Shown here: piece by piece, positions 27,731-58,304 of the stretch
Position numbering within the stretch: position 1 is the stretch's first letter
Layout of the letters: every line of letters starts with the position of its first letter
DNA from: Heptranchias perlo
Taxonomy: Eukaryota
Direction of reading: 5' to 3'
Assembly (NCBI RefSeq): GCF_035084215.1
Contig: NC_090354.1
Location: 2,790,001-2,854,000 of the forward strand
Length of the DNA stretch: 64,000 bases
Notes under the pieces: generated by a model
The model's input: only the letters and a program-made list of their open reading frames with translations
What the model was told of the DNA's origin: nothing
Databases searched by the model: none
Position numbers and translations under genes: made by a program

Positions 27731-29541
27731 CTAACTGCTTTGCTGCGGTGCCATGTTGCCTTTGTTGGACACCCACTTCGAATATGCAGCTGCAAAGTTG
27801 AACTCCTTGATTGGAGGCCCATGAATTGAGATCTTGATCAGGTTCTCCAACGACTTGCTGGTCAGTGAGTTCCCAAGTTTGGTCTTCAACATGTGCTGCC
27901 TGCTGAACGCTCCCTCAAGATCGGCGGTAGGAATGGGCAGAGCCAGGTACCGCTCTGCCAGCGAACTGACCATGGGAAACATCAGTCTCTGCTTGAGCGC
28001 GAGCTCGCACACGTCCTTGGCGCTGGTGAGCGCGTGAACGCCCGGCTGGGATTCCACAAAGTTCATGAAGCTGACTAGCTCCTGTTTGCAGCTCATCTCG
28101 AAATCGTCCTTGTCGCTCTCGTCGGAGAGCGAGGAGAGGTAATCAGTCACGGTCTGGATGTGCCGGTTCTTGGAGTCGGAGGCGTGCGCGGGGTCGAATA
28201 TCGCGGTCATCGCTGTCATGGTGGCTGCGTCTTTGGGTTCCGAGAACCTGGCCTTAAGGTCACGTGTGAGCTCCTCGACGAAAGTTCTGCAGGTGCTTTC
28301 CGCCTCTGTCCTCTGGCGGCGACCTGCTTTTATTCGGTGGTTCTGAAACGTAAAGGAACAGTCAGCGAGACCATCATCCCACATGTTGAGTGGCAGTGCG
28401 GCCAAGAGGTTCTTGAGCATTTCGCCAGCACTCTCGGCGCTCAGTTTATTAATAGTGGTGACTGTTGATTTCAACAGGGGGTGTACGATTGAGAAGTCGA
28501 CGTCAGAGGTCTGGTAACTTTTACACAGAATGTACAGCTGGTGGAGAATGTCGGCCAAAAAGTGACTACAGTGCAAAAATTTGTAGGTGCACATAGTCTT
28601 TGCTAGTCCGGCAGCTCTGGCCGACCGACTGTTGTGGAGCACGGAGACGAGGTTACCAAAGTTGCGGATTACAGCTTCAACTGATGCTCTGACTGTAAGC
28701 CACCTGGACGGAAAGATATCCTTGAACGGACTGCTCTGTTTGTGTGTGTCTCTCAGTATTTTTTGCATGGCCTCGAGCCCATCCCTGTTCTTTGGCAGAT
28801 CAACAAAGTGTTTGTAAATGGAGTCGAGAATTTGCTGGTACTTCACCAGGTAAGGGAGGGTGTCTGCAGCAGACACACTGCTGAGGGCTAATCGATGAGC
28901 AATGCAGTGGATGGATAAGAGACCAGGTGCCTGTGCCTTTAACTGAGTGACCACACCGTTCTTGCATTCAGCTGTGACAGCAGCACCGTCAATTGCGAAC
29001 CCACACATCTTTTTCATGTCTAGATCTTTCCCTTTGAGCACATCGGCTAACTCTGCCGTCATCTTATCCGCCGTGACCTCCTCCTGCAGTTTTTTTACTG
29101 CCAAGAAGTAAGTTTTGGGCTCATACCCTCCTCCAATGTGCTCTATGATTCGGAGGTATAGGAAAAGGCACGGCTCGGCGAAACAGTCTTCAGACTCATC
29201 GATCAGGATACTGAAACAGTTACTGGACCGAGCCCTTTTCAAGATTCCTTCATCAGTCACTTCAGCTATGGCCTGCTGGAATTCCTCGATCGACTTATCG
29301 CCCTGGTAGGAGAGAAGCTTGTCGGAGTGAAGCCCCGCCAGGTCGCTGAGACCCTGAATCAAGCACAGCTCATTCAGAGCTTCTGTAGAGGGGTTGGGAA
29401 TCATCTCTTTGGCTGCAAAATACACATTGCGGAGAACGCACGTGGCAGCTTGCTCAGACTTCTTGAGGCATTCCTCTTGGACCTTGACTGCGGTGTTGCT
29501 TTTTTTGGCAGGGTGCAGGCCTCCTTTATAGCTGGTCTCGC
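27731..29541 (-). CDS. Terminal exon: hAT-family transposase domain (ZNF862-like), domesticated
   Basis: Uninterrupted ~602-codon frame after acceptor tatcttag|GC (phase 1). hAT motifs FSILIDES (D), AIDGA (D), HCIAHRLAL (CxxH), SRWL, PTADLEGAFS (E) and C-terminal dimerisation region; stop TAG at 27733-27731. Confidence 0.9.
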
Positions 29542-30737
29542 CTAAGATAGCAAAACAGAAAGGAAAATACATAACAGTTAAAAATTTGTGGAGACTCTGC
29601 CTCGTGATGGGCTACGGGTTCCATGTGTGTTGGGTGCCCTGTGAGGTCTCGCCAAAAGGTCATTCTTTATGTATGAGCCTGGACCATGAAGTCTAGTTTC
29701 TTCTGACTGCAGTTGTAATAATGCTGATGGTAACCCATTAAACTTAAAACAGATTAACATGTGAACATACATACGAAAACGACGGACAGGTAAAGACCCA
29801 CTGGTCCATCCAGCCTGTCCTGTACAGTCATGCACCATGATACAGACATTTCCCATCTCACCAGAGCCATGAAATCCCCTGGGAGAGGCGGAAAGAAACA
29901 GCAGATTTAAGGGTAAGCTGGATAAACACATGAGGGAGAAAGGAATAGAAGGATATGTTGATAGGGTGAGATGAAGTAGGGCGGGAGGAGGCTCATGTGG
30001 AGCATAAACACCGGCATAGACCAGTTGGGCCGAATGGCCTGTTTCTGGGCTGTACATATTATGTAAAACCCAGGCCCATTAAGGGAAAATAAAATCTGTA
30101 AAACTCATCCCCTACCTCCCACCTCAGGCGATGGAAACTAGTCCAGGAGACCACCCTGGCCCTGATTAATGTTATCAGGTCCCAGGTGATTTCCGCCCCA
30201 GCCAGAAATGGGTCCAGCTCTCGTTTGAAGGAATTCAACGAATCAGTGGTCACTGCATGAGCTGGCAGTTTGTTCCTAATGTAGAGCAGCAAACCACCAA
30301 TTCGAAGTACACAAGGTCGTGTCTGTGAGGCCGGGCAGCAGTCTCTCTTAACGCTCACGGTTGCATTTAAATAACAATGATTGGAAAGTCTATGCTGCAG
30401 TGTTGGCAGGCTAATTGAGGGCACCACACGTCCATTCACGTGATATCTCCTGGGGTGGGGAGTCATTGGATATTGATCAGGAGCAGCTATCTCTCCTTCA
30501 GCCCACAGAGGATGACGTCAGCTGTAGCACTTCCACTGCAGCCCCCGTCTGAGATCAGCTAACCCAGCACAAACTGTAAATGAAACATGCGCCATTCTGA
30601 ACTGAGTGGCGTTTTGCTCCTGCAAGCTGTGCCAGGACTCAATGGATCATCAAAGGCGAGTTCGTATTTAGACTTTAATGAATACCGAGCCCACCATTAA
30701 TTCCAACCTCCAGCCCCAGCACTTTTACTCTACCTGC

Positions 30738-31387
30738 TTAGGAACAGGAGGAGGCCATTCAGGCTCTCGAGCCTGCTCCGCCATTTAATTAGATCATGGC
30801 TGTTCTGTTCCTCAATTCCATTTACCCGCCTTTGATCCATATCCCTTGATACCCTTGCCTAATAAAAATCTGTTGATCTCAGTCTTAAAAATTTCAATTG
30901 ACCTCCCAGCATCCACAGCCTTTTGGGGGAGAGAAGTCCAGATTTCCACTACCTTTTGTTTGAAAAAGTGCTTCCTGATTTCACTCCTGAACGGCCTAGC
31001 TCTAATTTTAAGACTATGCCCCCTTGTTCTGGATTTCCCCATCACAGGAAGTAGCTTCTCTCTATCTACCCCATTGACTCCTTTTATCATTTTAAACACT
31101 TCAATCTGATCACCCCTCAACCTTCTATACTCAAGGGAATACAACCCAAGTTTATGCAACCTGGCCTCATAATTTAACCCTTTTAGCCCCAGTATCATTC
31201 TGGTGAATCTGCACTGCACCCCCTCCAAGACCAGTATATCGTTCCTGAGGCACCGGTGCCCAGAACTGAACGTGGTACTCCAGATGGGGTCCGACCAAAG
31301 CTCTACAACTGAAGCATCACTTCCTCCCCTTTGTCTTCCGGCCTTCTTGAGATAAAGGCCAACATTCCATTCGCCTTTTTGATTACT
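30738..31387 (-). mobile_element. CR1 LINE 3' fragment
   Basis: ORF 30812-31228 (..LYSLEYRRLRGD..RTRGHSLKI..) typical of the CR1 ORF2 C-terminus. Confidence 0.85.
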
Positions 31388-56478: not shown

Positions 56479-57847
56479 TAACAACATATTATGATACTTG
56501 ATTGGTTGTATTATACTGATGTGCCAAACCTGGTTGGTAGATCAGACCCCCCCCCCTCCCGTTTCCCCACCTTTAAAATGTTATGCTCCAAAATGGTTCA
56601 GCTGATAACTGAACTGTCCACGTGAAACTGAGCCATACAGAGCCAAGAAGATTCCAGGCTTCATCCCTAGTTTGGGCTGAGTTAGCTGGGGTTATACAAA
56701 CACTACACAGCTTCCGGAGGGAAAGAGAAAATTAGCCGGGGATCCCGCTACTGATAGTTATCCAACAACCCCTGCTGAAAAGTGAACGGGTGTCAGGGTC
56801 GGGCTTGGCTATGATGCGCCACGTGGTAGAATAGCCAACTGACGCTCACCGCCCATGCTCATTTGTGGTGAAGAATGAGCACTTGGATGAGATACCAGCA
56901 CCCGTGGAGCCCTGACCCAGCAAAATCAGCACCTTCACTAAAGGGGGTAAAGATTGGAAGAAAAACCAATTGATACTGGGGCGTACCTTTAAACATTTAA
57001 GCTCAGTTAGCACCGCGAGACTGGAAATAAGTCTTGTTCGAGTTGATGTGGGCTGAATGCAACCTCGCAGTGTAACAATTGTATGGTGAAACAAGGTCAT
57101 ATAGGGATCTGTGGACAAGCTCAAGCTACCAGATGTTTCCACTTGTTGGGGAGACCAATACTAGGGGCTATAAATATAAGTTAGTCACCAATAAATCCAA
57201 TAAGGAATTCAGGAGAAACTTCTTTACCCGGAGAGTGGTTAGATGTGGAACCCGCTACCACAAGGAATAGCTGAGGCAAATAGCATAGATGCATTTAAGG
57301 GGAAGCTAGATAAACACATGAGGGAGAAAGGAATAGAAGGATATGCTGATAGGGTGAGATGAAGAGGGGTGGGCAGAGGCTTGTGTGGACCATAAACACC
57401 GGCGTGGACCATAAACACCGGCATAGACCAGTTGGGTCGAATGGCCTGTTTCTGAGCTGTAAATTCTATATAATTCTATGTACCAAACACATTGGCTGAG
57501 TTATGTGGCTACAGAAAGCAATAGGAAGGTTGGAGTTCGCCGTTCCCCAGCAATGAAGCGAATTTCTCCAACTCCCCCACACCAACTTCTTGTCCTGACA
57601 GATTTCTAATTTGATATTCAGAGGTGGCCCTGGATACACAGGATCCTATCGAGTGGTAACTCAAGGTAAACATGGCCTGGCATGGTAGCTGTGGTGTAAA
57701 CCAGGTTTTGCTGCTTACAGCCCTGGTCGTTTGTTATAGATCCCTGTTCGAGAAAAAATTGGGGGCGGGGTGGGGAAATGGGATAGTGACAGTTTTGAGA
57801 GACATTGATCATATGGAGCGGGGTGATCAGCAAAATAAATATCGTAC

Positions 57848-58304
57848 CGGTCCACTGCTCGCCCGACCCTCTGTATTCGCTCTTCTCCTTCGGAGTGCGC
57901 TTGTACGCAAGGTTGTTGCGGTTCTTCCAGCGGCACAGCCACCCGTTGGTGGGTTTGAACTCGATCCCCATCTCCTCGGCCAGGGCCTTGGCTTTGGCCA
58001 TGAGCACCGGCCCGGAGATGGGGCCCTCTTCCTTGCTGGCGGTCCAGAACCAGCTGAGGAGAGCGTCGTCAATGGTCTGGTTCTTGCCCTCCCGCTTGCG
58101 CTTGCGCTCCAGGTTGCCCCCTCGGAGCCACTCCTCCAGGATCTCCTCTTTCTTCTTGACGATTTTGGAGATGGCGGAGGCTGTCAGCCCGTACTCCCGG
58201 GCGATCTCCTTCTGCTTGAAGGAAGGGTCGTTCAGCTTCAAGATGATCTGGACTTTCTGAGCCAGAGTGATGGCGGTCCTCTTGATTTTGATCGGGTTCT
58301 CCAT
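57848..58304 (-). CDS. First coding exon: pogo/Tigger (CENP-B-like) HTH_psq + CENP-B HTH DNA-binding domains, no DDE_1 domain
   Basis: Acceptor gtttcag| at 58311, Kozak gatATGG at 58304. MENPIKIKRTAITLAQKVQII..IAREYGLTASAISKIVK..IDDALLSWF..PISGPVLMAKAKALA..FKPTNGWLCRWKNRN; ends WT-G|gtacga, 457 nt, phase 1. Confidence 0.88.

What the first reader, a model, noticed from the sequence alone, without database searches (positions are those of the whole stretch)
27731..58304. Spliced chimeric gene fusing a pogo/Tigger DNA-binding module to a hAT transposase core
Seen: eight - strand exons (58304-57848, 44320-44150, 43542-43345, 39998-39864, 37504-37337, 34682-34497, 32566-32387, 29541-27731) have proper acceptors/donors and all junctions are phase 1. 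Together they give one open 3306-nt CDS (1101 aa) in an otherwise repeat-decayed region. Known: HTH_psq plus CENP-B HTH belongs to pogo/Tigger elements, normally followed by a DDE_1 domain; the DES/DGA/CxxH/RW/E signature belongs to hAT elements, normally preceded by a BED or TTF zinc finger. Here each module lacks its native partner. Inference: exon shuffling between two unrelated domesticated transposases built a new host protein (sequence-specific HTH reader plus hAT dimerisation/nuclease fold). I do not recognise this architecture, but cannot confirm novelty without a search.
Basis: partly seen in the sequence, partly recalled or inferred. Interest (0 to 1): 0.93.

Follow-up and report, generated by a model that had tools for sequence, protein, structure and literature searches.

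The report
Shark gene built from two transposons
Sharks and rays have a conserved spliced gene that joins the DNA-binding head of one jumping-gene family to the probably disabled enzyme body of an unrelated one, through a linker carrying a corepressor-docking motif, so it is most likely a gene-silencing transcription factor assembled from transposon parts.

Summary
The finding is real. The eight exons splice in phase 1 into a stop-free 1101-aa frame. Both ends are single-copy. NCBI models join the pogo HTH pair to the hAT core in 7 of 14 shark and ray species in which orthologous pieces surfaced. Spliced contigs of this organism join exons 3-8.

The exon 2>3 GC donor was not seen spliced, and this species' own RefSeq model stops there.

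New here:
- The hAT core is of the C17orf113/ZNF862 type, folds like Hermes, and lacks its zinc finger.
- It is probably catalytically dead: the third acidic Glu is kept in 1 of 10 orthologues.
- The HTH is 126-127/128 identical among sharks.
- The six linker exons are largely tandem copies of one phase-1 exon.
- The only linker stretch invariant in 10 of 10 orthologues is TAPLDLR, close to the CtBP-binding PIDLR of CBX4, beside conserved SUMO-consensus sites.

Best reading: an elasmobranch-specific, sequence-specific CtBP/SUMO repressor. It is a new variant of transposase capture. No paper on it was found.

The parts
57848..58304 (-). Coding exon 1 (aa 1-152): pogo-superfamily bipartite DNA-binding module, CENP-B_N (about 58283-58131) plus HTH_Tnp_Tc5 (about 58079-57900), with no DDE domain after it
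   Evidence: Pfam; CENP-B 1hlv E 2e-13; single copy, next best match 57%; 126-127 of 128 identical in 5 sharks and 118-120 in 2 stingrays; no significant DDE remnant in intron 1
44150..44320 (-). Exon 2, acidic linker exon ending in a GC donor (CAG|GCGAGT); absent from the Hypanus, Hemitrygon and Mobula models
   Evidence: the RefSeq 212-aa model P0006 equals exons 1+2 read through this donor; joined to exon 3 in models of 6 shark species
43345..43542 (-). Exon 3, linker repeat with SSDSSSDE and the SUMO-consensus site IKQE (K259 at 43396)
   Evidence: covered by contigs that continue off the flanking introns (X1 record 6, X3 record 22)
39864..39998 (-). Exon 4, linker repeat starting with the CtBP-type motif PLDLR(S) (aa 277-281, 39996-39982) and carrying VKTE (K306); skipped in some stingray isoforms
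   Evidence: The only linker 5-mers present in 10 of 10 orthologue models, 3 of 346; isoforms P0014, P0015, P0020 lack it
37337..37513 (-). Exon 5, linker repeat (acceptors at 37513 and 37504) with SDTSSDE and IKQE (K360 at 37388)
34497..34682 (-). Exon 6, linker repeat; a cassette exon in shark isoforms, absent from the two stingray models
   Evidence: X1 record 2; P0008, P0012, P0013 lack it
32387..32566 (-). Exon 7, last linker exon, with a conserved LAQVLQQLG segment
   Evidence: A 180-nt unlisted piece of X1 record 2 between exons 6 and 8 equals its length
27731..29541 (-). Exon 8 (aa 500-1101): hAT transposase core of the zf-C17orf113/ZNF862 type without its zinc finger; D613 (29200), D683 (28990), CxxH (C711), RW (R778), E1041 (27916, not conserved)
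   Evidence: AlphaFold model pLDDT 90.7; top 12 Foldseek hits are Hermes, best E 1.5e-11; single copy; tree
26900..27730 (-). 3' UTR, at least 830 nt, with candidate polyadenylation hexamers at 27451 and 27059 (a third at 26358)
   Evidence: Contigs X2 record 7 and X3 record 15 run from exon 8 through the stop to 26900, the edge of the stretch laid

Best explanation
A single-copy host gene that arose before sharks and batoids split. A pogo-superfamily HTH exon, cut off from its DDE domain by a splice donor, and a hAT transposase core, entered through a splice acceptor just behind the position of its zinc finger, were joined by phase-1 splicing across a linker that grew by tandem duplication of one small phase-1/phase-1 exon. 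The product most likely works as a sequence-specific transcriptional repressor. The CENP-B-type HTH pair reads a long DNA motif. The disordered linker recruits CtBP through PLDLR(S) and is SUMOylated at psi-K-x-E sites. Cassette exons and HTH-less isoforms would tune corepressor load. SHOWN: architecture, single copy, conservation, species-tree-like descent, Hermes fold, loss of the catalytic Glu in most orthologues, motif conservation, exon duplication. INFERRED: DNA binding, CtBP binding, SUMOylation, oligomerisation, repression, order of events.
For: Fused models in 7 species: S. torazame (RefSeq and a separate GenBank annotation), S. canicula, H. ocellatum, C. punctatum, H. francisci, H. 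sabinus, H. akajei. Spliced contigs of this organism link exons 3-8, partly by length arithmetic. HTH 126-127/128 identical in 5 sharks against 62-88% per linker exon and 82-90% for the hAT exon. Ten elasmobranch hAT exons form one branch (SH-aLRT 100, quick tree) with batoids together and galeomorphs together. E1041 is kept in 1 of 10 rows and the following R in 0 of 10, whereas 31 of 38 free relatives with that region keep ER[GAS]FS. TAPLDLR is invariant in 10 of 10 models; a motif of this class arises in 0.26% of linker shuffles. PIDLR is the CtBP-binding motif of CBX4/Pc2, and its deletion weakens binding (PMC2808386, passages; PMC12992792, passage). psi-K-x-E sites are kept in 9 of 9 models at exons 3 and 5 and in 7 of 9 at exon 4. 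Linker exon 3 matches exons 4, 5 and 6 at z 15, 15 and 10. Transposase capture in tetrapods tends to yield repressors (bioRxiv 2020.05.07.082677, passages and section 5).
Against: The 1>2 and 2>3 junctions were not displayed in this organism's contigs (1>2 lay outside the stretch laid; table 8 was cut), and all four runs are one sample of one study. In 7 of 14 species only short or split models surfaced: H. perlo 212 aa, M. asterias 312, C. maximus 369, M. hypostoma 287 and 351, N. bancroftii 304 + 829, and hAT-only models in Rhinoraja and Pristiophorus. The Hypanus models are frameshifted in the last third of the hAT core. Both catalytic Asp residues and CxxH are kept in 11 of 11 rows, and this species keeps the Glu. 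No dN/dS could be computed, because only proteins of orthologues were available. The exact PLDLR variant was not found tested in print. No functional data exist.
Confidence: 0.6

Rival explanations
1. The fusion is real, but its main job is architectural, like CENP-B: it binds repeated pogo-end-like or satellite motifs and bridges or silences them, rather than repressing gene promoters.
For: Same HTH pair as CENP-B. CENP-B itself is an HTH + unrecognisable catalytic triad + added dimerisation domain (PMC7386202, passages). Human JRK binds ends of its own Tigger family (PMC13538051, passage). Many decayed pogo copies remain in this genome (67 matches).
Against: Near-invariance of the HTH across sharks and rays fits a stable target better than fast-changing satellites (inference). 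The CtBP-type and SUMO motifs point to transcriptional corepression, although both readings can hold together.
Confidence: 0.2
2. The HTH part and the hAT part are mostly separate transcription units, and the fusion is a minor read-through isoform or is lost in some lineages, this species included.
For: This species' RefSeq model ends at the GC donor; split or short models in 7 of 14 species; HTH-less isoforms P0007 and P0017.
Against: The short models end after different exons (2 or 4). Their tails are unrelated to each other, and the Cetorhinus tail matches intron-4 DNA of the window. Three break at intron 2, where this species has a non-canonical donor. In the five sharks with full-length models every linker exon is conserved and in frame.
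Confidence: 0.08
3. The hAT core keeps nuclease or recombinase activity and the pogo HTH retargets it, giving a RAG-like domesticated recombinase.
For: This species keeps D613, D683, CxxH, RW and E1041; both Asp residues are kept in 11 of 11 rows; Hermes fold.
Against: E1041 is replaced by D, M, L, L, V, V, Q, H or G in 9 of 10 orthologues; the following Arg is absent in all; the basic C-terminal tail and the G of the M.G..SGV stretch are lost.
Confidence: 0.07
4. A still-mobile or recently mobile chimeric transposon, or a chance splice path through fossils.
For: Both modules are of transposon origin and the region is rich in repeats.
Against: One copy by protein and by DNA search (lower-bound searches); 30 kb span with 7 introns; species-tree-like descent; spliced contigs.
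Confidence: 0.01

Closest known systems
Host-transposase fusion transcription factors (KRABINER, POGK, ZNF862, SETMAR; bioRxiv 10.1101/2020.05.07.082677)
   Same: Transposase domains on separate exons, captured by splicing; transposase DNA-binding domain plus a repressive module; single copy, conserved.
   Different: That survey covered tetrapod annotations and required a host-derived domain, most often KRAB. Here both folded domains come from transposases of two superfamilies, and the putative effector is a short-motif linker built by exon duplication. Its Table S3 was not seen.
CENP-B and the TIGD/JRK pogo-derived genes (PMC7386202)
   Same: CENP-B_N + HTH_Tnp_Tc5 module.
   Different: That paper states the DDE domain is retained in all the domesticated genes it lists; here it is absent and replaced by a hAT core.
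C17orf113 / ZNF862-type domesticated hAT proteins
   Same: Same hAT clade: RefSeq names several isoforms 'C17orf113-like' or 'ZNF862-like', and the nearest free relatives carry zf-C17orf113.
   Different: No zinc finger and no KRAB; a pogo HTH instead; a separate branch closest to unnamed and mollusc sequences at 33-41% identity.
THAP12/PRKRIR (THAP + hAT core) and SCAND3/ZBED9 (SCAN + integrase + hAT)
   Same: Vertebrate genes in which a hAT core sits behind a domain associated with another mobile-element group. The domain architectures are recalled; PMC3257199 (passages) only lists PRKRIR/THAP0 under hAT and SCAND3 as a retroelement fusion gene.
   Different: Different partner domains and lineages; these precedents mean a two-element chimera is not categorically new.
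CBX4/Pc2 linker (PIDLR + SUMO site VKPE; PMC2808386)
   Same: A CtBP motif one conservative change away (PLDLR against PIDLR) near psi-K-x-E sites in a linker.
   Different: No homology shown; CBX4 reads chromatin by a chromodomain. A functional analogy only.
Hermes transposase (PDB 4d1q, 6dww, 8sjd)
   Same: Fold of the 602-aa exon-8 product (TM about 0.5, E 1.5e-11).
   Different: No BED-type finger; third catalytic residue not conserved; not mobile.

Membership tests
Domesticated transposase / host-transposase fusion gene | Single copy, not part of a repeat family | tested here: met
   One self-match; next best 24-39% (hAT) and 57% (HTH); DNA search gives one match (tallies are lower bounds)
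Domesticated transposase / host-transposase fusion gene | Orthologues conserved and vertically inherited | tested here: met
   Pieces in 14 species; one branch with species-tree-like topology, quick tree
Domesticated transposase / host-transposase fusion gene | Transcript support for all junctions | tested here: inconclusive
Domesticated transposase / host-transposase fusion gene | dN/dS below 1 | not testable with these tools
   No orthologous DNA available; protein conservation only
Domesticated transposase / host-transposase fusion gene | Fusion to a recognised host domain (KRAB, SCAN, SET) | tested here: not met
   No Pfam family on exons 2-7 at E<0.1; no usable Atlas hit; the exon-3 query matches only this locus in the genome
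Domesticated transposase / host-transposase fusion gene | Shared synteny across species | not testable with these tools
   Only this genome's neighbourhood could be read
pogo-derived genes (CENP-B/TIGD/JRK) | CENP-B_N + HTH_Tnp_Tc5 | tested here: met
pogo-derived genes (CENP-B/TIGD/JRK) | DDE_1 domain after the HTH pair | tested here: not met
   None in the protein; remnant test in intron 1 p 0.03 for 1 of 4 queries and 0.4-0.9 for the others
pogo-derived genes (CENP-B/TIGD/JRK) | Tigger versus pogoR subfamily | not tested
   No labelled reference set available
hAT transposase (active) | Hermes-like RNase H fold with helical insertion | tested here: met
hAT transposase (active) | Conserved D, D, E triad | tested here: not met
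   D and D in 11 of 11; E in 1 of 10 (this species), D in one more
hAT transposase (active) | N-terminal BED/TTF/C17orf113 zinc finger | tested here: not met
   Absent from the protein; tblastn of finger-bearing relatives finds no finger in intron 7
hAT transposase (active) | TIRs and 8-bp target-site duplication around the ORF | not tested
   No inverted-repeat search was run around exon 8; single copy makes surviving ends unlikely (inference)
CtBP-recruiting repressors | Conserved P-phi-D-L-(S/R) motif in a non-globular region | tested here: met
   PLDLR in 10 of 10 models and PLDLRS in 8 of 10
CtBP-recruiting repressors | Physical binding to CtBP and repression | not testable with these tools
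   Needs experiment

The most novel reading that the evidence does not exclude
Elasmobranchs built a KRAB-independent transcriptional repressor almost entirely from non-host parts: a pogo DNA reader, a dead hAT oligomerisation scaffold, and a home-made array of duplicated phase-1 cassette exons carrying CtBP and SUMO motifs. Alternative splicing of the array dials corepressor load, and HTH-less isoforms could act as dominant negatives through the hAT core. This would be a second route to transposase-derived repressors, outside tetrapods, by domain swapping between two DNA-transposon superfamilies.
Probability: 0.35. Interest if true: 0.8.

Novelty: new variant of a known kind. Interest (0 to 1): 0.62.

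Why it matters
The systematic survey of transposase capture that I read covered tetrapods, where KRAB supplies most repressive modules. This gene shows a lineage outside that survey reaching a similar design by combining two transposon superfamilies and a duplicated short-motif exon. It offers a testable answer to why catalytically dead hAT cores (C17orf113, ZNF862 and THAP12 types) are kept under selection: swap or delete the core and measure oligomerisation, DNA avidity and repression. It also flags a class that domain-architecture screens requiring a host domain would miss, and a gene that annotation pipelines split in about half of the species seen.

Tried and rejected
- Homodimer prediction for hAT residues 20-515: no verdict, no evidence either way.
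- DDE remnant in intron 1: a tblastn extension looked suggestive, but the shuffle test gave p 0.03 in 1 of 4 queries; rejected.
- Zinc-finger remnant in intron 7: none.
- Origin of the linker exon: the exon-3 query found only exons 3 and 5 of this gene; the Atlas gave no usable hit. The whole-protein Atlas hits were all under 0.8, leads only.
- TIRs of the free relative P0027: contigs L038/L039 showed no convincing terminal pair; the 313-nt perfect inverted repeat at the start of L038 may be an assembly artefact.
- SKAP1 between this gene and the Hox cluster: a PH-domain search gave no match in C33:2.85-3.41 Mb (split exons are easily missed).
- The PX-type exon at 10938 gave no Pfam hit, so 'SNX10/11' is recalled, supported only by a paralogue 0.9 Mb from another homeobox cluster.
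- Literature: 'C17orf113'+'transposase' 0 papers; 'CtBP'+'PXDLR' 0; 'CtBP'+'PLDLR' 2, one with the motif in a flatworm Su(H) table. The listings of searches showed no paper on this gene. The BCL-3/CtBP paper PMC2916444 was not available.
- Earlier findings of this scan: nothing.
- The careful tree did not finish; the quick tree was used, with Hypanus left out because of its frameshift.

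
Full report
OBSERVATION. The eight minus-strand segments join to 3306 nt, 1101 aa plus stop, with no internal stop; all acceptors are AG and all seven junctions are phase 1. One donor is non-canonical: exon 2 ends in CAG|GCGAGT, which fits the strong context typical of GC-AG introns (recalled). 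[quoted passage not shown] In 204 kb around the locus none of the 8 exons overlaps a self-repeat, while 45% of the gene span does. The window lies on contig C33 of a 3.25-Gb genome. Its exon 1+2 read-through is identical to RefSeq XP_067825382.1 of Heptranchias perlo, whose contig length equals that of C33, so the organism is taken to be this shark.

COPY NUMBER. The hAT exon has one self-match; the other 59 matches are 24-39% identical and mostly broken (run with a stricter first look). Its DNA has one match. The HTH exon has one self-match; the next of 67 matches is 57% identical and continues into a truncated DDE start. These tallies are lower bounds.

IS THE FUSION REAL? A search for long relatives of the hAT exon returned 2 clusters among 7999 scored candidates, both full-length HTH+linker+hAT proteins. 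A search with the HTH region among proteins of 603-1920 aa returned 6 of 613 candidates, all of this gene. Cluster look-ups name fused models in 7 species: Scyliorhinus torazame (RefSeq and GenBank), S. canicula, Hemiscyllium ocellatum, Chiloscyllium punctatum, Heterodontus francisci, Hypanus sabinus and Hemitrygon akajei. Against this, 7 further species surfaced only with short or split models: H. perlo 212 aa, Mustelus asterias 312, Cetorhinus maximus 369, Mobula hypostoma 287 and 351, Narcine bancroftii 304 + 829, and hAT-only models in Rhinoraja longicauda and Pristiophorus japonicus. Other isoforms of these species may exist unseen. Three of the short models break after exon 2 and two after exon 4. 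Their tails are unrelated to each other, and the Cetorhinus tail matches intron-4 DNA of the window. Annotation breaks are therefore the simpler reading (inference).

TRANSCRIPT EVIDENCE. I laid four Logan contig sets (one sample, one study, 'RNA' only guessed) on 26900-44500. X3 record 16 has 574 letters before exon 8, matching exons 7+6+5 (543) plus about 31. X3 record 22 has exon 3 plus 135 letters (exon 4 is 135 nt). X1 record 6 has exon 3 with 161 letters downstream and 154 upstream that do not continue along the intron; the table was cut, so it does not say whether these come from exon 2 or exon 1. Exons 3-8 are thus joined as spliced sequence. The 2>3 junction was not displayed, and 1>2 lay outside the stretch and rests on the RefSeq model.

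CONSERVATION AND DESCENT. Residues 8-135 are 126-127 of 128 identical in five sharks and 118 and 120 of 128 in two stingrays. Linker exons are 62-88% identical in sharks and the hAT exon 82-90% (numbering with the +9 acceptor). The stingray models lack exons 2 and 6. A full HMMER search of 1.84 billion representatives gave four clusters at 57-90% identity, all elasmobranch by look-up, then a drop to 41%. No chimaera or bony-vertebrate orthologue surfaced, but only a few of the 150 hits were looked up by name. In a quick ML tree of 34 rows the 10 elasmobranch hAT exons form one branch (SH-aLRT 100), with batoids together, galeomorphs together, and unnamed ENA/JGI/Logan and other unlabelled sequences as nearest neighbours. 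The gene therefore predates the shark-batoid split (roughly 250-300 million years, recalled). The Hypanus models are frameshifted in the last third of the hAT core; they lie on a 635-kb contig, and assembly error was not excluded. dN/dS could not be computed.

THE hAT HALF. Of 28 non-elasmobranch relatives scanned, 21 list zf-C17orf113 at E<=0.001. In the alignment exon 8 begins just after the position of this finger, and no finger remnant lies in intron 7. The AlphaFold model (98 sequences, pLDDT 90.7, pTM 0.88) matches Hermes transposase in its top 12 Foldseek hits (best E 1.5e-11, TM about 0.5). D613, D683, CxxH and the Trp of RW are kept in 11 of 11 elasmobranch rows. The third acidic position is Glu only in this species; it is D, M, L, L, V, V, Q, H and G in the other nine usable rows, and the following Arg is absent in all ten. 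Among free relatives 31 of 38 with that region keep ER[GAS]FS. The fold is selected; catalysis most probably is not (inference).

THE LINKER. Exons 2-7 end in a similar (Q/S)-F/S-Y-x|G junction. With flanks, exon 3 aligns to exons 4, 5 and 6 at z 14.9, 15.4 and 10.2 against 200 shuffles, and exon 4 to exon 7 at 8.4; exon 2 is weakest (5.6 to exon 3), and 6 of 15 pairs are at z 3.0 or less. This is mostly an array of tandem duplicates of one phase-1/phase-1 exon, so exons can be skipped in frame. Annotated isoforms do so: exon 6 (P0008, P0013), exons 6+7 (P0012), exon 4 (P0014, P0015), exons 3+4 (P0020), exon 3 (P0172), and the HTH exon (P0007, P0017). Of 346 linker 5-mers only three, spelling TAPLDLR, occur in all 10 orthologue models tested; PLDLRS occurs in 8 of 10. 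PIDLR is the CtBP-interaction motif of CBX4/Pc2 and its deletion weakens binding (PMC2808386, passages); PIDLRS mediates a CtBP interaction in Drosophila (PMC12992792, passage). SUMO-consensus psi-K-x-E sites (consensus recalled) occur in 9 of 9 models at exons 3 and 5 and in 7 of 9 at exon 4. Shuffles of the linker give a CtBP-class motif in 0.26% and three SUMO sites in 0.025% of cases; these motifs were noticed first and tested afterwards.

MECHANISM. Most likely (0.6): the HTH pair, homologous to the CENP-B DNA-binding domain, reads a long motif; human relatives give long, information-rich motifs (PMC13538051, passage). The linker brings CtBP and SUMO-dependent corepressors, and the dead hAT core acts as a scaffold, probably oligomeric as Hermes is (recalled). 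Rivals: CENP-B-like architectural or repeat-silencing role (0.2), mostly split genes (0.08), residual nuclease (0.07), mobile element (0.01). All functional steps are inferred.

NEIGHBOURHOOD. A bZIP_Maf exon (read as NFE2L1, recalled) lies about 24 kb before the window, a PX-type exon at window 10938 (read as SNX11, recalled), and a run of ten homeoboxes at C33:3.41-3.57 Mb, about 560 kb from exon 1 (HoxB by recalled human synteny). A strong CpG island at C33:2,914,501-2,915,250, 66 kb upstream of the ATG, is a candidate promoter (not tested).

COMPARISON AND NOVELTY. Transposase capture by splicing is established in tetrapods: 94 events, KRAB the commonest partner, acceptors just upstream of the transposase ORF (bioRxiv 10.1101/2020.05.07.082677; passages and section 5; its Table S3 was not seen and may list two-transposase fusions). 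All pogo-derived genes in PMC7386202 keep the DDE domain (passages). ZNF862 is KRAB + TTF fingers + hAT (PMC8856651, passages). THAP12/PRKRIR and SCAND3 are recalled precedents for a hAT core behind a foreign element's domain; PMC3257199 lists them without that analysis in the passages seen. Ten full-text searches, judged mostly from listings, showed no description of this gene; subscription journals are not covered. The protein exists in databases as 'uncharacterized' or 'C17orf113-like'. Verdict: a real and apparently undescribed pogo-HTH/hAT chimera with a plausible CtBP/SUMO effector linker; a new variant of a known kind; interest 0.62.

Noticed in passing
L014 (G000:C13:57,942,656 region) and L015 (G000:C3:42,504,529 region): Two further open frames (340 and 255 aa) with an intact pogo HTH pair and no DDE domain; L015 joins the HTH directly to the C-terminal part of a TIGD-like protein. 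DDE-less pogo readers may form a small family in this genome.
   Followed up: partly
L013, L016, L017/L018 (C35:27.74 Mb, C8:2.15 Mb, C42:2.22 Mb, C669): Intact single-exon TIGD-like frames of about 507-518 aa; in L017/L018 the catalytic region looks degenerate.
   Followed up: no
L012 (G000:C31:9,199,162-9,199,578): Closest relative of the HTH exon (57%); a 228-aa frame with the start of a DDE region (NCNETG) that then stops. Possibly near the donor pogo family.
   Followed up: partly
L009 (G000:C10:83.23 Mb): An 863-aa open frame with a zinc-finger-like N-terminus and a hAT core ending in ERGF; probably another domesticated C17orf113/ZNF862-type gene. Other unbroken hAT frames at C12:11.74 Mb (748 aa) and C31:1.03 Mb (488 aa).
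   Followed up: no
G000:C12:29.77-30.29 Mb: About ten similar hAT-related matches spaced along 0.5 Mb, each with a stop, suggesting a tandemly amplified unit.
   Followed up: no
window 37504 / 37513: Two acceptors 9 nt apart for exon 5 (plus or minus VPS); both forms appear among orthologue models.
   Followed up: partly
window 32566-32530 (exon 7): A LAQVLQQLG segment whose LQQLG core is kept in 8 of 10 models; possibly a helical protein-binding motif.
   Followed up: no
window 12083-12459: 41-bp minisatellite, 9.2 copies, 92% matches.
   Followed up: no
G000:C33:2,914,501-2,915,250 (L030): Strong CpG island (GC 0.68-0.69, observed/expected up to 1.37), candidate promoter for this gene's unseen 5' UTR exon.
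   Followed up: no
L038:1-692: A 313-nt perfect inverted repeat at the start of the metagenome contig that encodes the intact hAT relative P0027; may be an assembly artefact.
   Followed up: no
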